Source of the DNA: Candidatus Latescibacterota bacterium
Lineage (GTDB): Bacteria; Latescibacterota; UBA2968; UBA8231
Assembly (NCBI GenBank): GCA_965248355.1
Contig: OZ252098.1
Span: 416,001-480,000, forward strand
Reading direction: 5' to 3'
DNA length: 64,000 bases
In this document: positions 52,978 to 59,712 of the stretch, piece by piece
Numbering within the stretch: the first letter of the stretch is position 1
Layout: every line of letters starts with the position of its first letter
The notes under the pieces: model-generated
What the model was told of the DNA's origin: nothing
Database searches by the model: none
What the model saw: only the letters and a program-made list of their open reading frames with translations
Made by a program: the position numbers and the translations under genes

Positions 52978-53169
52978 GTGAATCGGGGATTCGACCAAGC
53001 GACGATCGAGCGCGTGGCCCGCATGTACAAGAGCAACCAGGAAGCCTGTGCCGCCCTCGGCATCACCCTGCGCAGCTTCGGCCGCCTGTGCCGCAAGTAC
53101 GGCGTGGACACCCCCTGGGTGAAGAAGCGGCGGGAGCGCGTCGCCGTGCAGGCGGCCGCCCCGTCCTGA
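52978..53169 (+). CDS. Stand-alone Fis-type HTH protein (63 aa)
   Basis: GGAGGGAG RBS; NQEACAALGITLRSFGRLCRKYGV resembles the bEBP C-terminal HTH. Confidence 0.75.
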   Translation: MNRGFDQATIERVARMYKSNQEACAALGITLRSFGRLCRKYGVDTPWVKKRRERVAVQAAAPS

Positions 53170-53207
53170 GGCAGCGTGTCGGGGAGTGTGCCGGAGGCGT
53201 GACCCAG

Positions 53208-53246
53208 GTGTCCGGTAGCGGACACAGCTGTACGGAAACAGGTCAC
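53208..53246. promoter_or_regulatory. Candidate paired bEBP UAS, class B (GTGTCCG-N4-CGGACAC)
   Basis: Perfect palindrome GTGTCCG-GTAG-CGGACAC plus a weaker CTGTACG... site 20 bp later; near-identical motif at 59673. Confidence 0.65.
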
Positions 53247-53286
53247 CGCCGGACCCACTTCAGGAGGTGACAGGGAGGAAACGGGT

Positions 53287-53302
53287 TGGCACGGCGATTG
53301 CA
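53287..53302 (+). promoter_or_regulatory. Sigma-54 -24/-12 promoter P2
   Basis: TGGCAC-GGCGA-TTGCA, perfect consensus. Confidence 0.85.
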
Positions 53303-53350
53303 GTGGAGAGGGCGTCGACTCATTCACCCTTTCCCGACGAGGAGGACGAC

Positions 53351-53440
53351 ATGCAGACCTTTCGAATGGTGAGAGAGATCGCCGTCCCCGTGGCCATCGT
53401 CCTGTGCTGCATCACGCCCTTCCTCATGCCGGCTGGCTGA
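53351..53440 (+). CDS. Small 29-aa single-TM peptide
   Basis: GAGGAGGA RBS; MQTFRMVREIAVPVAIVLCCITPFLMPAG*; directly downstream of P2. Confidence 0.6.
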   Translation: MQTFRMVREIAVPVAIVLCCITPFLMPAG

Positions 53441-53539
53441 GACCGGGCGCGACGTCCGCAGGACCCCTCCCGAGAGGCCCGCGCCCCCATGGGCTGCGGG
53501 CCTCCGGCGTTCTCACCATCCCCCGGCGACCATCGCGCC

Positions 53540-53576
53540 GTGGCGGCGACCGCCGCCGGAGTGGCGGATCCCGCCG
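53540..53576. promoter_or_regulatory. Candidate paired bEBP UAS, class A, upstream of pspA
   Basis: GTGGCGG-CGA-CCGCCG (53540) and GTGGCGG-ATC-CCGCCG (53561), 21-bp period, followed by an AT-rich spacer. Confidence 0.55.
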
Positions 53577-53668
53577 ATTCGGCCACCTTCTCAAGAGCTT
53601 TCAGTTGTCTTTCTGAAACCATTGCCTGGCAGCGTCTTACAAGGAAATATCCTTTGTCTCCATCGACG

Positions 53669-53684
53669 TGGCACCAGGATTGCA
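53669..53684 (+). promoter_or_regulatory. Sigma-54 -24/-12 promoter P3 (pspA operon)
   Basis: TGGCAC-CAGGA-TTGCA, perfect consensus, about 40 nt upstream of the pspA ATG. Confidence 0.88.
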
Positions 53685-53725
53685 GAGGCCCGCTCACACC
53701 CATCCGAAGAGAATCGGAGGCAGAG

Positions 53726-54469
53726 ATGGTCAGATCGACGTTTTCCCGGATCTCGGATATCGTCAGGTCCAACGTCCACGACCTGCTCGATCACCTGGAG
53801 GATCCGGAGAGGATGGTGCGCCAGATGGTGCGCGACATGGAGATCGAGGTGGACCGCGTCGTCGGCGCCACCGGCACCGCCGTGGCCGGCCAGCGCCGGC
53901 TGGAGAAGGAGCAGGAGGAGCACCGGGACCGCAGCCGCCGGCTGGAGAGCCGCGCCCGCCAGGCCCTGGAATCCGGCGACGAGGAGCTGGCCCGCCAGGT
54001 GCTGGCCCGCAAGGTGCTCAGCGACGAGGCGGCCGAGGACATGGAGCCGGCCCTCGAGGAGGGACGCCGGACGGCCTCCCAGCTTCGGGGGCAGCTGGTC
54101 ACCCTGCGCCACGAGCTGGAGGAGACCCGCAACCGCCAGGCCGCCCTGATCGCCCGGATCCGGGCCAGCCGGCAGGTGGGCTTCCCGCGCGACGATCTCG
54201 CCGGCGACCCGGCGGCCGATCCCGCCGCCGAGTTGGATCGCCTCGGGCAGCGCCTCGAGCACAACCGCAACGAGTTCGACCGCCTGCGCCGGCGCCTCGA
54301 GCTGGCCCACGTGGCCGGGGAGGCCTCGGCCGAGGCGCGCCGCACCCTGCTCGGAGAGGACGGCATGCTCGGGCGCCGCTTCGAGGAACTCGAGATGCGC
54401 CGGCGCATCGATGAAGAGTTGGCCGCTTTGCGCCAGAAAGACCCGCAGTCCGGGGAGAGCGCCCGATGA
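53726..54469 (+). CDS. pspA: PspA/IM30 (ESCRT-III-like) family protein
   Basis: FSRISDIVRSNVHDLLDHLEDPERMVRQMVRDME, ARQAL..GDEELARQ.L, IDEELAALR; GGAGG RBS. Confidence 0.9.
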   Translation: MVRSTFSRISDIVRSNVHDLLDHLEDPERMVRQMVRDMEIEVDRVVGATGTAVAGQRRLEKEQEEHRDRSRRLESRARQALESGDEELARQVLARKVLSDEAAEDMEPALEEGRRTASQLRGQLVTLRHELEETRNRQAALIARIRASRQVGFPRDDLAGDPAADPAAELDRLGQRLEHNRNEFDRLRRRLELAHVAGEASAEARRTLLGEDGMLGRRFEELEMRRRIDEELAALRQKDPQSGESAR

Positions 54470-54834
54470 CCGGCCCGGACCGTTCCCCCCGGTCGCGCCT
54501 GGCCGCGGCCCTGCTCTGCTTCTTCCTCGGCTGGCTCGGAGCCCACCGTTTCTACGTGGGCAAGATCGGCACCGGCCTGCTGATGGTGCTCACCGTGGGC
54601 GGCTTCGGCATCTGGTCGCTGATCGATCTGATTCTCATTATATGTGGGGCCTTCAGCGACGCCGCCGGCCTGCGCCTGTCGTCGTGGATGCCCGCCGAGG
54701 CCGCCGTCCCACCTCGAGCCGAGGAGCTGCGGGGACGCATGGACCGCATCGACCGGCAGTTGACGGATCTTCAGGGCGTCATGATAGATATGGCGGACAA
54801 GCTGGACCGGCGCCGCTACGGACACCTGGTATAA
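54466..54834 (+). CDS. TM2-domain protein with C-terminal coiled-coil tail
   Basis: SRLAAALLCFFLGWLGAHRFYVGKIGTG...GGFGIWSLIDLI (TM2); tail ...TDLQGVMIDMADKLDR; ATGA overlap with pspA. Confidence 0.88.
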   Translation: MTGPDRSPRSRLAAALLCFFLGWLGAHRFYVGKIGTGLLMVLTVGGFGIWSLIDLILIICGAFSDAAGLRLSSWMPAEAAVPPRAEELRGRMDRIDRQLTDLQGVMIDMADKLDRRRYGHLV

Positions 54835-54850
54835 CCGCCCGGAGAGAGCC

Positions 54851-56221
54851 ATGTCTCGACCCTGCCTTCCCCTGCGTCTCGCCGCCCTCCTGGCGGGGTT
54901 GAGCGCCGCGGGCCCGCCCCTCTCCGTGCGGGCGGTGGACCTGCCCGACTACCTGGCCCTGGCCCTGCCCATCTCCGGCATCACCGTCGACGGCGACCTG
55001 TCCGACTGGCCCCGGGAGATGCCGGCCCTGCCGATCCGCAACGAGTTCGGCGCCTACGGCCCCACCGACACCGAGGGGACGGACCTGGACACCAGCGACG
55101 ACCTCAGCCCCTCCTTCCGGGTCGGGTACGATCCCGAGGAGCAGCTGCTCTACGTGGCCGTGGAGGTGCGCGACGATGTCCTCTACGCGAACCTGGCCGG
55201 CGGCAACGTGTCCCGGACCGATGCCTGCGAGATCTACGTCTCCGGGATCGTGTCGTCGGACCACACTCCGATCCAGTACGCCCTCGTGCCGGGGACGAGC
55301 ACCTATCCCACCTTCGACCGGAGAGGGGTCCACCACAACCTCCGGGCCGACAGGAGATCCCGCGGGGCCTGGGAGCGCCGGGACGACGTCGTCACTACCT
55401 ACGAGTGGGGCGTGCAGGTGCGGTCCGGCTTGCCGGCCCATCCGCGGACCGATCCGCGGCGCGGTTTTACGGCGATGAACCCGGCCCCCGGCCGGGCGAT
55501 CCGCCTCGAGGGCGGCGAGATCATCGGTTTCGACGTGGTCGTCGTCGACGGCGACGGGCCGCCCCCGGAGTTCCGTGCTCCGTCCCGCCTGACCCGCCTG
55601 CTGAGCGAGGCAACCGCCTCCTGGGTGCCCTGGGGCCCCCCGCGGTCCGTCAAGATGTATGATGACGACCGGGTGGGGCGTCTCGTGCTGGCGCCGGAGA
55701 ACTGGTCGGCGGGGTTCGACGCCGAGGCCATGGAGGAGTACCTGGAGACCTGGCTGAGAGATCATCCGGATGTCTGGATCGCGGTGATCGAGAGAGCCGT
55801 GTCCGGGCAGCCCCGACCGCATTCTCACCCTCTGGCGCGGAGGCTGGACCAGGCGGCCGGAGCCATCGGCAGGGCCGAGGCGCGGGTGCTGGAAATCGAG
55901 CCGCCGGGTCCGGCCGGGGGGGACTACACGACACCGTGGCAAGGGAGTCCTCATCCCGACCTGGTTCGTCGGGGGGACGACAACGACCGGCTCATGCTGA
56001 TCGGGGGCTGCCTGCTGGGGCTGGCCGTCGGCCTGGCCGCGGTCTACGTGGCCCGCCGCCGGCCCGGGGCGGACTCGGCAGTCCTCGGGGATCGCCTCTC
56101 GGCCCTGGAGTCGCGCATGACGGACACCCAGGACGTGATGATCGCCCTTAGCGAGAAGCTGGACCGCATGGACGCCCGGGACCGCAAGGGGGCCGAGGCC
56201 CCCTGGGAGAACGACTCGTGA
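54851..56221 (+). CDS. Single-pass membrane protein: CBM9/DOMON-like ectodomain + TM + coiled-coil tail
   Basis: Signal peptide; ITVDGDLSDWP, YD....LYVAVEVRDD, DACEIY, YEW, IGFDVVVVD; TM LMLIGGCLLGLAVGLAAVYV-ARRR; tail ...TDTQDVMIALSEKLDR. Confidence 0.75.
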   Translation: MSRPCLPLRLAALLAGLSAAGPPLSVRAVDLPDYLALALPISGITVDGDLSDWPREMPALPIRNEFGAYGPTDTEGTDLDTSDDLSPSFRVGYDPEEQLLYVAVEVRDDVLYANLAGGNVSRTDACEIYVSGIVSSDHTPIQYALVPGTSTYPTFDRRGVHHNLRADRRSRGAWERRDDVVTTYEWGVQVRSGLPAHPRTDPRRGFTAMNPAPGRAIRLEGGEIIGFDVVVVDGDGPPPEFRAPSRLTRLLSEATASWVPWGPPRSVKMYDDDRVGRLVLAPENWSAGFDAEAMEEYLETWLRDHPDVWIAVIERAVSGQPRPHSHPLARRLDQAAGAIGRAEARVLEIEPPGPAGGDYTTPWQGSPHPDLVRRGDDNDRLMLIGGCLLGLAVGLAAVYVARRRPGADSAVLGDRLSALESRMTDTQDVMIALSEKLDRMDARDRKGAEAPWENDS

Positions 56222-56916
56222 GCGCGGTCCAGGGGGCCCCTGCGCTCGAAGGCTTGGTTCCCGAGGCTGGATCCGGCCGCGCGCGCGTCTCGGATTCTCC
56301 TGCCCCGCGCAGGAGCGCGGGCCCCTTGCTCGCGGTGACCCGCCTGCCCGGGTTCGTCCTGCGCCTCGGCCTGGGCCTGGCGGCCACCCTCGTGGTCAGC
56401 GTGCGCGCGCAGCTGGCCATCCTGGAGCGCTACCCCGAGGCCGACTGGATGGCGCTGGCCGGCGGGCTGCTGGCCGGCGGGCTGGTGCTGTTCGTCGCCG
56501 TGGCCGTGGCCTTCGGCCTGCGCTCGCCGCGGCGGGCCCTGCTGCTGCTGACGGCTCTTCCAGCCCTGCTGCTGACCGCCGGGTGCCTGTCGGTGACCCA
56601 CTTCCCCGAGGCCGGGTTCCGGACCGGGGAGCTGCGCGGCGAGTGGGAGCGTCTGCACCCGACCCTGCGCCTGTCCCTGTGGATCGCCCGCCTGGGAGGC
56701 GACCTGGTGCTCACCGACGTGGCCGCCCGCCCGGCGCAGGACGGCTCCACGCCATGGAGGGGGTACGTCCGCTCCGTGGACCTGCGCGCCCGGGACGCCG
56801 GCGACCTGCGCGACTGGGCGCGTCAGGGTCTGTTCCTGGCCCTCGGCCTGAAGGCCGCGCCCCACGCCGGCGCCGCCGGCCACCTCCACGTCTCCCTGCC
56901 GCCCCGTCCCCGGTAG
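56218..56916 (+). CDS. 3-TM membrane protein with degenerate M15/LAS-like C-terminal domain
   Basis: GTGA overlap; three hydrophobic segments; LHPTLRL...LVLTD...SVDLR...HLHVS. Confidence 0.55.
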   Translation: MSAVQGAPALEGLVPEAGSGRARVSDSPAPRRSAGPLLAVTRLPGFVLRLGLGLAATLVVSVRAQLAILERYPEADWMALAGGLLAGGLVLFVAVAVAFGLRSPRRALLLLTALPALLLTAGCLSVTHFPEAGFRTGELRGEWERLHPTLRLSLWIARLGGDLVLTDVAARPAQDGSTPWRGYVRSVDLRARDAGDLRDWARQGLFLALGLKAAPHAGAAGHLHVSLPPRPR

Positions 56917-56927
56917 CCCGCCGGGCT

Positions 56928-58274
56928 TCAGAACCTCAGCGAGAACACGGTCCGCACCTCGGGTTCGGACCTGGCCGAGATCGTGCCCCGGTGGAGGCGC
57001 ATGATCTGCCGGCACAGGCTCAGGCCGATCCCCGAGCCGTCCTGCTTGGTGGTGAAGAAGGGAATGAAGAGCTTGTCCAGGGCCTCCTCGACGATGCCGG
57101 GGCCGTTGTCGGCGACCTCGATGACGACCCGGTCGCGGTCCATGGAGGCGGTCAGGTCGACGCGCGCCCCGGGGCGGCCCCCGGCGGCGTCGCAGGCGTT
57201 GCGCAGCAGGTTGATGAGCACCTGCTCCACCTGCCCGGGGTCGGCGGTCAGCTCGAGGGAGGGCGGGTCGACGGCGTGGGCGAGCGCCACCCCGGCCTGT
57301 TGGAACTGGTGCTCCATGAGCTGGGTCACCCGCTCGAAGAGGCCGCTCACCGGGGAGATCTGGAAGTCGGGGGCCGGGACCCGCGTCAGGTCGCGGTAGG
57401 CGTCGACGAAGTGCAGCAGGCCTTGCGACCGGCGGTGGATGGTGTGCACGGCGGTGCGCACGTCGGCCACGTCCTCGCCGGCGAGGGCCTCCCGCTGCAG
57501 CAGGCCTTCGGCGGTCGCGGACAGGGAGGCGATGGGCGTGATGGAGTTCATGATCTCGTGGGTCAGCACCCGGATCAGCCGTGCCAGGCCGCCATCTCCT
57601 GCTCCTCCAGCTCGCTGTGGATGTCGTGGAGGGAGACGAGGCGGTACTCCTGGTCGCCCAGGCGGAAGAGGGTGGCATGGCAGGCGAGCTGGCGGGTCTC
57701 GTCCCCATCCTCGAGGGGCACCAGGGCTTTCCTGCGCGGGCCCAAAGTCATCAGGGTCCGCACCAGGCCGGGGCCGCGGTGCTCGAGGTCGGAGAGGTGG
57801 CCGAGACGGTTGACGCGGAGCAGCCGTTTGGCCGCGGTGTTGATCAGCGACACCTCTCCGGCGCGATCGAAGGCGACGAGGCCGACGCCGATGTGCTGCA
57901 CCACCATCTCCAGATAGAGGGCCTGCTCCTCCTTCTCGGCGCGGGCGGCGCGGAAGGCGTCGAGGACCTCGTTGAAGGACCTCTTCAGCTCGTCGAAGGA
58001 GGATCCGAGGCCGCCGGTGACGAAGGTCTGGGAGAAGTCGGAGTAGCGGACGGCCTGGAAGAAGCGCGCCAGGTCGCGGTTCGTCCGGTCCACGAAGCGG
58101 ACCAGGGACCACAGCTGCCAGGCCAGGAAGAGTCCCAGGACGAGGGGCATGGCCGGATAGGCCGGGTCGCGCAGCGCATGCGGGAACAGCCACAGGCAGA
58201 GCCCCAGGAGGAGCACGCGGAGCAGGACCTGCACCCGGAAGTTCCCGAGCACGCGCTTCCGGCTCCAGGGACGG

Positions 58275-58285
<11 letters not shown>
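56928..58285 (-). CDS. NtrY-like PAS sensor histidine kinase (1-nt frameshift near 57582)
   Basis: 2 TMs + PAS, then LIRVLTHEIMNS H-box, QVLINLLRNA, DNGPG, FFTTK..GSGIGL; ...AAWHG/ARLIR junction lacks one base. Confidence 0.85.
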
Positions 58286-59660
<1,375 letters not shown>

Positions 59661-59672
59661 GGGAGCCTCCGG

Positions 59673-59712
59673 GTGTACGCCATCGGACACCGTCTGTATC
59701 GCCGGCGTGCAC
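59673..59712. promoter_or_regulatory. Candidate paired bEBP UAS, class B
   Basis: GTGTACG-CCAT-CGGACAC plus a weaker CTGTATCG...CGTGCAC site 21 bp later. Confidence 0.65.

What the first reader, a model, noticed from the sequence alone, without database searches (positions are those of the whole stretch)
53669..56916. Non-canonical phage-shock (PspA/ESCRT-III-like) system with modular sensors sharing one cytoplasmic tail
A sigma-54-driven, tightly coupled operon: pspA, TM2 protein, CBM9/DOMON-like single-pass protein, 3-TM M15-like protein, with no recognisable pspB, pspC or pspF. The two otherwise unrelated membrane proteins end in the same 28-aa coiled coil: LRGRMDRIDRQLTDLQGVMIDMADKLDR (54727-54810) vs LGDRLSALESRMTDTQDVMIALSEKLDR (56084-56167), 12/28 identical. 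Inference: this tail is a PspB/C-analogous PspA-recruiting or heterodimerisation module onto which different input domains are grafted (membrane TM2, periplasmic glycan-binding). It would link cell-wall or glycan sensing to membrane remodelling. I know of no description of this architecture.
Basis: partly seen in the sequence, partly recalled or inferred. Interest (0 to 1): 0.85.

Follow-up and report, generated by a model that had tools for sequence, protein, structure and literature searches.

The report
Shared PspB-like tail on Psp sensors
A membrane-stress (phage-shock) operon whose two unrelated membrane proteins end in the same short, extremely conserved cytoplasmic helix, which marks an unannotated family of PspA-linked partner proteins distantly resembling PspB and PspC; physical binding has not been shown.

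Summary
A perfect sigma-54 promoter (53669-53684) precedes four tightly coupled genes: pspA, a TM2 protein, a CBM9-fold single-pass protein and a 3-TM protein with a Hedgehog/M15-like domain. The two middle proteins share a 25-28 aa tail (BLASTP E 1e-4).

The tail is a real, portable module. It is nearly invariant in both families while the rest diverges to about 33% identity. A tail profile finds 176 cluster representatives among 1.84 billion proteins. Most are 60-130 aa proteins made of an N-terminal TM helix, a linker and the tail. No Pfam or NCBIfam model covers them.

In the phylum (relatives are titled Latescibacterota or Gemmatimonadetes MAGs), 102 of 168 genomes carry the tail. In 38 of 40 sampled loci the tail gene lies just downstream of pspA. 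In 35 of these 40 the locus also holds a 2-TM/winged-helix-like protein, a TPR histidine kinase and an NtrC-type sigma-54 activator.

Canonical PspB is absent. Even so, the tail profile locally matches the cytoplasmic helices of PspB and PspC better than every shuffle.

Best reading: a divergent PspB/PspC-like cytoplasmic adaptor grafted onto different sensor domains. It is a new variant of a known kind. Binding to PspA remains an inference.

The parts
53287..53302 (+). first exact sigma-54 promoter-like site (TGGCAC-N5-TTGCA), upstream of a 29-codon hydrophobic ORF
   Evidence: 2 sites in the window, 0.02 expected; sequence read
53351..53440 (+). 29-codon ORF for a hydrophobic peptide, preceded by GAGGAGG; whether it is a real gene is uncertain
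   Evidence: Not found in the sister genome's locus. One 19-aa look-alike (63% identity) elsewhere in this genome. No Pfam hit.
53540..53552 (+). 13-mer GTGGCGGCGACCG with nearby TGGCGG repeats, shared with the upstream region of the genome's second psp operon; possible activator-binding site (inference)
   Evidence: A 13-mer match of this GC content could be chance (about 0.1 by my rough estimate).
53669..53684 (+). sigma-54 promoter of the operon (TGGCACcaggaTTGCA), 42 nt before the pspA ATG
   Evidence: Sigma-54-like sites lie upstream of 33 of 39 relatives' pspA genes. rpoN is present in the genome.
53726..54469 (+). pspA (247 aa), PspA/IM30 family; a paralogue type carrying an insertion relative to the commoner type
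   Evidence: PF04012 E 1.6e-30; one of 3 pspA genes in the genome; alignment A5
54466..54834 (+). TM2-domain protein (122 aa, 2 TM helices) with a C-terminal tail
   Evidence: PF05154 E 9e-21. Full-length homologues keep the tail: 74 of the 120 listed.
54727..54810 (+). tail copy 1 (LRGRMDRIDRQLTDLQGVMIDMADKLDR)
   Evidence: 73.2 bits with the tail profile
54851..56221 (+). 456-aa protein: signal-like helix, CBM9-fold ectodomain, helical region, disordered linker, TM helix (residues about 377-403), tail helix (residues 409-448)
56084..56167 (+). tail copy 2 (LGDRLSALESRMTDTQDVMIALSEKLDR)
   Evidence: 64.1 bits
56218..56916 (+). 232-aa protein: 3 TM helices plus a C-terminal Hedgehog/DD-peptidase (LAS, M15-like) domain. 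It has no tail. This copy lacks the first His of the metal site.
56928..58285 (-). membrane histidine kinase (AtoS/ZraS-like), convergent with the operon. The reading frame changes near 57590, which means either a frameshift or an assembly error.
58275..59690 (-). NtrC-type response regulator with a sigma-54 interaction domain. This neighbourhood is not conserved in two other genomes that have the same operon type.
   Evidence: No sigma-54 activator in the 18-kb loci L033 and L036.

Best explanation
The shared tail is a divergent PspB/PspC-like cytoplasmic coiled-coil adaptor specific to the psp systems of this phylum.

Its ancestral carrier is a small single-pass membrane protein encoded just after pspA, which is the same position and architecture as PspB. 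In the window operon the same module has been fused to a TM2 membrane domain and to a periplasmic CBM9-fold domain.

Proposed mechanism:
1. The N-terminal parts report on the membrane or the periplasm.
2. The cytoplasmic tails pair with each other and, on stress, engage PspA (and possibly the regulatory kinase).
3. This recruits PspA to the membrane and relieves sigma-54-dependent transcription of the operon.

Shown here:
- The module exists, is modular and is under strong constraint.
- It is genomically coupled to pspA and to sigma-54 promoters.
- It has a heptad pattern.
- It is locally similar to the PspB and PspC helices.

Inferred:
- The tails are cytoplasmic (from topology).
- The tails contact each other and PspA.
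- The glycan or cell-wall input.
For: 1. Constraint. The core LTDxQDVMIALSEK is almost unchanged in 42 of 64 homologues of the CBM9-fold protein, although whole-protein identity falls to 33-43%. It is also kept in 74 of the 120 listed TM2 homologues. R7, T16 and Q19 are invariant in 22 tails from both families.

2. Modularity. The tail profile finds 176 representatives at E<=1e-3 among 1.84 billion. Of the 150 listed:
- 113 are 130 aa or shorter, and 66 of those have a strict TM-like segment
- 18 are CBM9-like
- 3 are TM2
- 9 are other, longer pieces
- 7 are multi-stretch repeats that are probably unrelated.

3. Linkage. Of 40 regions around tail hits in 36 genomes, 38 have pspA upstream on the same strand, with the nearest tail 0.26-0.9 kb past its 3' end. 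In this genome all 3 tail genes follow 2 of the 3 pspA genes.

4. Regulation matches psp. Sigma-54-like sites lie upstream of 33 of 39 relatives' pspA genes. Three of the 7 exact sites in the genome are at psp loci. rpoN is present. An NtrC-type activator is present in 35 of 40 loci.

5. Likeness to PspB and PspC.
- The small carriers are a TM helix, a linker and a helix, as Ravi et al. describe PspB (PMC11237479, passages).
- hhalign of the tail family against PspB scores 27.3 (prob 53.6%, 16 columns). Reversed controls score 12.8 and 13.8, and 0 of 200 column shuffles reach it.
- Against E. coli PspC residues 94-106 the score is 24.8, and 0 of 150 shuffles reach it.

6. [quoted passage not shown]

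7. Hydrophobic residues of the consensus fall at positions 2, 5, 9, 12, 16, 19, 23 and 26, a 3-4 heptad. The invariant T, D, Q and D fall on the other faces (read from A2 and A3).
Against: - No contact has been shown.
- The match to PspB and PspC covers only 13-16 columns. The most conserved half of the tail (TDxQDVMIALSEK) has no counterpart in either.
- Pfam PspB finds nothing over its cut-off in 168 genomes. No Pfam family covers the 42 small carriers, and NCBIfam PspB and PspC each reach only 2 of 42, at E 0.019-0.026.
- My PspB profile was built from enterobacterial sequences only, and PspC was a single sequence.
- Two of 40 loci hold CBM9-fold tail proteins with no pspA within 9 kb.
- PspA occurs in 133 of 168 genomes and the tail in 102, so PspA does not need the tail.
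- The TPR kinase and the 2-TM/winged-helix-like protein co-occur with the tail as often as the regulator does, in 35 of 40 loci. The conserved partner could therefore be one of them.
Confidence: 0.55

Rival explanations
1. The tail is the input signal for the two-component regulator rather than a PspA dock. It binds the TPR domain of the soluble histidine kinase encoded in the canonical loci, or the 2-TM/winged-helix-like protein. The membrane sensors would then control phosphorylation of the NtrC-type activator, as LiaF controls LiaS (recalled).
For: - A TPR histidine kinase, a sigma-54 response regulator and the 2-TM/winged-helix-like protein accompany the tail genes in 35 of 40 loci.
- The kinase has TPR repeats and no evident membrane segment.
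- TPR domains bind short peptides or helices (established knowledge).
- Extreme conservation of a polar face fits one fixed partner.
Against: - The window-type operon (window, L033, L036) has no TPR kinase nearby, yet keeps both tails.
- pspA is the nearer and more constant neighbour, in 38 of 40 loci.
- The likeness to PspB and PspC points to the PspA-binding class.
- The two readings are not exclusive.
Confidence: 0.25
2. The tail is only a homo- or hetero-oligomerisation coiled coil that assembles the membrane proteins into a complex. It makes no direct contact with PspA or the regulators.
For: - A regular heptad pattern.
- One to four paralogous tail proteins lie side by side in most loci.
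- The window operon has two different tail subtypes.
Against: - The invariant residues T, D, Q and D lie off the hydrophobic seam. That is unusual for a simple zipper and suggests an outward-facing recognition surface.
- Conservation across carriers that share nothing else.
- Strict pspA linkage.
Confidence: 0.12
3. The resemblance of the two tails is a chance or compositional match between two coiled coils and has no shared function.
For: The pairwise match is short (25 aa, E 1e-4).
Against: Both tails are conserved across their own families. Both score 64-73 bits against a family profile that finds only 176 representatives in 1.84 billion proteins.
Confidence: 0.01

Closest known systems
PspB (Pfam PF06667, TIGR02976) of the proteobacterial pspFABC system
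   Same: - A small protein with an N-terminal TM helix and a cytoplasmic helix.
- Encoded downstream of pspA in a sigma-54-dependent operon.
- The helix start is locally similar (consensus RL.EIER against MRERIQALE): hhalign 27.3, above 200 of 200 shuffles.
   Different: - Not detected by the PspB models at their cut-offs.
- The conserved core TDxQDVMIALSEK.DR has no PspB counterpart.
- Occurs as one to four paralogues.
- Occurs fused to TM2 and CBM9-fold domains.
- Restricted to Latescibacterota/Gemmatimonadota-labelled genomes.
[quoted passage not shown]
   Same: - A cytoplasmic C-terminal helix on a membrane protein of a psp operon.
- Local match of RL.EIERRLT to E. coli PspC residues 94-106 (46% identity over 13 columns, score 24.8, above 150 of 150 shuffles).
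   Different: - No PspC domain (PF04024) in any carrier.
- The match is short and was tested against one PspC sequence only.
Bacillus subtilis PspA-YdjGHI and Lia systems (recalled; PMC8581546 seen as a search listing only)
   Same: - PspA is linked to the membrane by dedicated small membrane proteins.
- In one family of this phylum the canonical locus also encodes an NfeD-like protein and a Band 7/flotillin protein.
- Control is by a two-component system, as in Lia.
   Different: - No sequence likeness of the tail to these partners was found in the Pfam or NCBIfam scans.
- Transcription here is sigma-54-dependent.
Catalogue of PSP partners by Ravi et al. 2024 (PMC11237479)
   Same: [quoted passage not shown]
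   Different: The main text holds none of the terms TM2, Gemmatimonad, CBM, DOMON or sigma-54. Its supplementary tables and web app could not be seen and may list such contexts.

Membership tests
PspB (PF06667 / TIGR02976) | Scores above the family model's curated cut-off | tested here: not met
   - PF06667: 0 of 168 phylum genomes over the cut-off. Two sub-threshold hits (E about 0.5) overlap tail ORFs.
- None of the 42 small carriers matches in Pfam at E<=1.
- TIGR02976 matches 2 of 42, at E 0.019 or weaker.
- The window tails have no hit at E<=10.
PspB (PF06667 / TIGR02976) | N-terminal TM anchor followed by a cytoplasmic helical domain in a protein of about 75 aa | tested here: met
   Met by the small carriers (A3; 113 of the 150 listed representatives are 130 aa or shorter). 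The two window proteins carry the helix on other N-terminal parts.
PspB (PF06667 / TIGR02976) | Encoded after pspA in a sigma-54-dependent operon | tested here: met
   38 of 40 loci. Sigma-54-like sites upstream of 33 of 39 pspA genes.
PspB (PF06667 / TIGR02976) | Profile-to-profile homology over the domain | tested here: inconclusive
   hhalign prob 53.6%, with only 16 of 74 columns aligned. The score exceeds the reversed controls and 200 of 200 shuffles. The PspB profile was enterobacterial only.
PspC (PF04024 / TIGR02978) | PspC N-terminal domain | tested here: not met
   No PF04024 hit in the window proteins or in the 42 small carriers. TIGR02978 matches 2 of 42, at E 0.026 or weaker.
PspC (PF04024 / TIGR02978) | C-terminal cytoplasmic PspA-binding helix | tested here: inconclusive
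   Local match of 13 columns, prob 23%, score 24.8, above 150 of 150 shuffles. Binding is not testable with these tools.
PspA/IM30 (PF04012) | Scores above the Pfam gathering cut-off | tested here: met
   106.8 bits against a cut-off of 33.9. Below the NCBIfam equivalog cut-off for E. coli-type PspA: 102.4 against 242.95.
PspF | Receiver-less sigma-54 activator adjacent to and divergent from pspA | tested here: not met
   - The nearest activator (58275-59690) has a receiver domain and is convergent.
- TIGR02974 scores 250.7 bits against a cut-off of 443.55.
- The canonical loci use a TPR kinase with an NtrC-type regulator.
TM2 domain (PF05154) | Scores above the Pfam gathering cut-off | tested here: met
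   74.3 bits against a cut-off of 27.9
CBM9 / DOMON-like fold | Family model and fold | tested here: met
   - Pfam CBM9_1 is just under its cut-off: 20.2 against 23.4 bits.
- The fold matches CBM9 structures at E 1.1e-11 with TM-target 0.77, then NxrC and EbdC.
- Sugar binding was not tested.
LAS / peptidase M15-like (Hedgehog/DD-peptidase fold) | Fold of the C-terminal domain | tested here: inconclusive
   - Foldseek: Hedgehog N-terminal domains, prob 1.00 but E 0.06, TM-target 0.48.
- VIA-align: Hedgehog Z 6.6-7.0; phage L-Ala-D-Glu peptidases Z 5.9-6.4 over residues 128-232. These Z values are middling.
- Atlas lead at 0.75 to HH_signal/Peptidase_M15_3.
LAS / peptidase M15-like (Hedgehog/DD-peptidase fold) | Metal ligands: His...Asp and His-x-His | tested here: not met
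   - In alignment A6, 13 of 17 orthologues keep the first His.
- The window copy has a deletion there.
- Its three closest relatives also lack that His and read H-L-R at the second motif.
- The Asp is invariant.
- The window copy keeps H-L-H.
- The motif definition is recalled.

The most novel reading that the evidence does not exclude
The tail is a previously unrecognised, portable docking peptide for the bacterial ESCRT-III protein PspA. It bridges PspB and the PspC C-terminal domain in sequence space. Evolution has grafted it onto periplasmic glycan-binding (CBM9-fold) and TM2 sensors. Cell-wall or exopolysaccharide status would then be wired directly to membrane repair, with a TPR kinase reading the same peptide to set sigma-54-dependent expression.
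Probability: 0.3. Interest if true: 0.75.

Novelty: new variant of a known kind. Interest (0 to 1): 0.58.

Why it matters
Outside proteobacteria, firmicutes and actinobacteria, little is known about how PspA-type ESCRT-III proteins are told where and when to act.

Here a 27-residue, near-invariant peptide marks every candidate partner in a whole phylum. It comes on interchangeable sensor domains. That gives a compact handle to test: one peptide against PspA, the kinase and itself.

It would also provide:
- a family model that would annotate several hundred currently nameless small membrane proteins;
- a possible evolutionary link between PspB and the PspA-binding end of PspC.

If the CBM9-fold and M15-like partners really sense envelope polymers, this would be a route from cell-wall state to membrane remodelling.

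Tried and rejected
- Complex prediction of PspA (alignment A5) with the tail (A2): no verdict. Scores were 0.00, 0.38 and 0.00 against a mark of 0.32, and the controls were not run. It says nothing either way.
- A strict regular expression for the tail found only the two window copies in the genome. The profile search later showed a third copy, so the expression was too narrow.
I did not resend it. The representatives search answered that question.
- Attempts to obtain diverse PspB and PspC sequences for a better profile all fell short:
  - The protein search listed only enterobacterial PspB at 82% identity or more.
  - The plasmid tblastn gave enterobacteria plus one Aeromonas.
  - The metagenome scan returned only E. 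coli-like copies.
  - So the PspB and PspC comparisons rest on narrow profiles.
- Direct hhalign of PspB against PspC gave nothing (score 13.3). hhalign of the 38-residue tail alignment A2 alone was weak against PspB (prob 7%) and null against PspC.
- The Pfam scan of the tails alone gave only a chance-level DUF2096_N hit.
- RNA evidence: four metatranscriptome runs of one study hold short contigs, 90-100% alike, on parts of pspA, on the TM2/CBM9 junction and on the CBM9/fourth-gene junction. Contigs cannot show strand, start or level, and DNA carry-over is not excluded. I do not count this as proof of expression. Parts without cover mean nothing.
- The search of earlier findings by place, sequence and words returned nothing bearing on this locus.
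- The convergent kinase/regulator pair as the operon's dedicated regulator: rejected as a conserved partner. Two other genomes with the same operon type (loci L033 and L036) have no sigma-54 activator within their 18-kb regions.


Full report
**What is in the window.**
- Base composition is about 66-76% G+C across the region.
- On the + strand four ORFs follow one another with almost no spacing:

| Gene | Coordinates | Junction with the preceding gene |
|---|---|---|
| pspA | 53726-54469 | - |
| TM2 protein | 54466-54834 | ATG overlaps the pspA stop by 4 nt |
| CBM9-like protein (456 aa) | 54851-56221 | 16-nt gap |
| Fourth protein (232 aa) | 56218-56916 | GTG overlaps the stop by 4 nt |

- Pfam confirms PspA/IM30 (E 1.6e-30) and TM2 (E 9e-21). 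It gives CBM9_1 just under its cut-off and nothing for the fourth protein.
- No sigma-70-like promoter or intrinsic terminator is predicted inside 53100-57100.
- An exact TGGCAC-N5-TTGCA lies at 53669-53684, 42 nt before the pspA ATG. A GGAGG precedes that ATG.
- The window holds 2 such exact sites against 0.02 expected.
- The whole 5.5-Mb genome holds 7, and 3 of them are at psp loci.
- The genome encodes sigma-54.

**The tail is real.**
- BLASTP aligns the two C-termini at 11/25 identities, E 1e-4.
- Each tail is conserved within its own family, which matters more than the pairwise match.
- 74 of the 120 listed homologues of the TM2 protein end in ...GRMDRIDRQLTDLQGV[LM]IDM.DKLDRRQYGHLV.
- 42 of 64 homologues of the CBM9-fold protein end in ...R[LM]TDTQDVMIALSEK[LY]DR.D.
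- That holds although whole-protein identity falls to 33-43%.
- The other 22 of the 64 are truncated or frameshifted, or are CBM9 domains in other architectures.
- In an alignment of 22 tails from both families, R7, T16 and Q19 are invariant and K28 and D30 nearly so.
- Hydrophobic positions follow a 3-4 heptad. The invariant polar residues sit off that seam (read).

**Who else carries it.**
- A profile of the tail, searched against 1.84 billion cluster representatives, finds 176 at E<=1e-3 and 56 at E<=1e-10.
- The 150 listed break down as follows:

| Class | Count |
|---|---|
| 130 aa or shorter (66 have a strict uncharged TM-like segment; many others are fragments) | 113 |
| CBM9-like | 18 |
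| TM2 | 3 |
| Longer pieces | 9 |
| Multi-stretch repeats, probably unrelated | 7 |

- The typical member is an N-terminal TM helix, a linker of about 20 residues, and then RL.EIERRLTD.QDVMIALSEK.DRWE.
- Neither Pfam nor NCBIfam covers these proteins.
- In a scan of one genome per species, 48 loci were confirmed. Their titles are almost all Candidatus Latescibacterota or Gemmatimonadetes MAGs. One 3-kb contig is labelled Rhodospirillaceae.
- That scan used a single narrow peptide pattern, so it gives a lower bound on the family's range.

**Linkage to pspA.**
- In the window's phylum, 102 of 168 genomes have the tail: family f1 51/75, f3 21/22, f4 29/31, and the other eleven families 0/39.
- PspA is found in 133 of 168 genomes.
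- I fetched 40 regions of about 18 kb around tail hits in 36 genomes. I chose them because they lay on long contigs, not for their content.
- In 38 of the 40, pspA lies upstream on the same strand, with the nearest tail 0.26-0.9 kb beyond its 3' end.
- The two exceptions are CBM9-fold tail proteins with no pspA within 9 kb.
- Thirty-five of the 40 share one layout:
  1. pspA
  2. a 160-220 aa protein with two TM helices and a weak winged-helix signal
  3. one to four tail proteins
  4. in some lineages an ECF sigma factor, an NfeD-like protein and a Band 7 protein
  5. a TPR histidine kinase
  6. an NtrC-type sigma-54 activator
- These genomes are related to one another, so the counts are not independent trials.
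- This genome has that canonical locus too, at G000:C1:921439-926000, with a 121-aa tail protein and its own exact sigma-54 site.
- Its third pspA has no tail partner.
- The window operon is therefore a second, derived psp operon. The same type occurs in a sister species (L033) and in another genus (L036, with two CBM9-fold tail proteins).

**Relation to PspB and PspC.**
- Canonical PspB is absent from the phylum at the Pfam cut-off, in 0 of 168 genomes.
- The small carriers do have PspB's architecture and its position in the operon.
- hhalign of the carrier alignment against an enterobacterial PspB alignment gives:
  - probability 53.6% and score 27.3 over 16 columns (consensus RL.EIER against MRERIQALE);
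  - reversed controls of 12.8 and 13.8;
  - 200 column shuffles with mean 10.5 and maximum 19.6.
- Against E. coli PspC the match is to residues 94-106, with score 24.8. Reversed PspC scores 14.9 and 150 shuffles reach at most 20.3.
- The first half of the tail therefore resembles the cytoplasmic helices of both proteins more than composition explains.
- The most conserved half of the tail has no counterpart in either.
- Ravi et al. [quoted passage not shown] - I read the tail as a very divergent member of this class, not as a member of the PspB family as currently defined.

**The other two proteins.**
- The AF2 model of the 456-aa protein (pLDDT 76.1) has the following parts:
  - an N-terminal signal-like helix;
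  - a beta-sandwich;
  - a helical stretch;
  - a disordered linker;
  - a TM helix at residues 377-403;
  - the tail as a long helix at residues 409-448.
- The sandwich matches CBM9 modules (E 1.1e-11), then the DOMON-like subunits NxrC and EbdC.
- With RRR after the TM helix, the tail should be cytoplasmic. This is an inference from the positive-inside rule. The same reasoning puts both ends of the 2-TM TM2 protein in the cytoplasm.
- The fourth protein occurs in 25 of 168 genomes. Where the contig allows a view, it sits immediately after a tail gene.
- Its C-terminal domain has the Hedgehog/DD-peptidase (M15-like) fold at moderate scores.
- Most orthologues keep a His...Asp plus His-x-His pattern. 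The window copy has lost the first His through a deletion. It may bind a substrate rather than cleave it; this is an inference.

**Regulation.**
- Sigma-54-like sites precede 33 of 39 relatives' pspA genes. The six misses are all in one family.
- The convergent kinase/regulator pair at 56928-59690 is of AtoS/ZraS/NtrC type.
- Two other genomes with the same operon type (loci L033 and L036) have no sigma-54 activator within their 18-kb regions.
- The kinase's frame is broken near 57590.
- A 13-mer and TGGCGG repeats are shared by the upstream regions of the two psp operons of this genome and of near relatives.
- This hints that the canonical locus's regulator also drives the window operon. The evidence is weak.

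**Mechanism and rivals.**
- Most likely (0.55): the tails are PspB/PspC-like adaptors.
  1. They pair with each other.
  2. On stress they engage PspA.
  3. This couples membrane (TM2) and periplasmic (CBM9-fold, M15-like) inputs to PspA recruitment and sigma-54 induction.
- First rival (0.25): the tail instead addresses the TPR kinase.
- Second rival (0.12): the tail is only an assembly zipper.
- None of the contacts has been shown.

**Novelty.**
- No paper in the library links the TM2 domain with bacterial PspA. Four papers hold both terms, and by title and abstract all four are on eukaryotic topics.
- No paper holds both Latescibacter* and 'phage shock'.
- The main text of the PSP survey lacks the terms TM2, Gemmatimonad, CBM, DOMON and sigma-54.
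- I rate this a new variant of a known kind: an unannotated, phylum-restricted PspB/PspC-like module with new fusions and a two-component regulator in place of PspF.

Noticed in passing
window 53287-53440: A second exact sigma-54 site drives a 29-codon hydrophobic ORF with a strong ribosome-binding site, just upstream of the psp promoter. It is not conserved in the sister genome's locus. One 19-aa look-alike lies at G000:C1:2767597. It might be a small membrane peptide of the regulon, or nothing.
   Followed up: partly
window 57480-57720 (- strand): The histidine kinase gene changes frame near 57590. The N-terminal part ends ...EEQEMAAWHG-stop, and the HisKA part continues in another frame (...LIRVLTHEIMNS...). 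This is either a real frameshift or an indel error of the assembly.
   Followed up: partly
window 52978-53169: A 63-aa ORF with a weak helix-turn-helix signal (RWP-RK E 0.0019). It is conserved in the same position upstream of the same operon type in a sister genome (L033). It may be a small DNA-binding regulator.
   Followed up: partly
G000:C1:921439-926000 (outside the window): A second, canonical psp locus of the same genome: sigma-54 site, pspA, a 162-aa 2-TM/winged-helix-like protein, a 121-aa tail protein, a TPR histidine kinase and an NtrC-type regulator.
   Followed up: yes
L064:7500-15600 and similar loci of family f4: The canonical locus there also carries a 56-aa hydrophobic ORF, an ECF sigma factor, an NfeD-like protein and a Band 7/flotillin protein between the tail genes and the kinase. 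This recalls the Bacillus PspA-flotillin link.
   Followed up: partly
L034:9017-11236 and L037:8955-9926: CBM9-fold proteins with the invariant tail but no pspA within 9 kb. These orphan sensors presumably act in trans.
   Followed up: partly
window 53448-53629: Contigs from two metatranscriptome runs join 53448 to 53629, skipping 180 nt. Related strains therefore appear to have a shorter spacer between the small ORF and the psp promoter.
   Followed up: no
window 56218-56916 and alignment A6: The M15-like domain of the fourth protein has lost its first metal-binding His in this genome and its closest relatives, while 13 of 17 orthologues keep it. This is a possible switch from enzyme to binding protein.
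   Followed up: partly
L039:8092-9161: A third operon type: pspA is followed directly by a TM2 protein that carries the canonical (not the TM2-type) tail. TM2-tail fusions may therefore have arisen more than once, or tails were exchanged.
   Followed up: no
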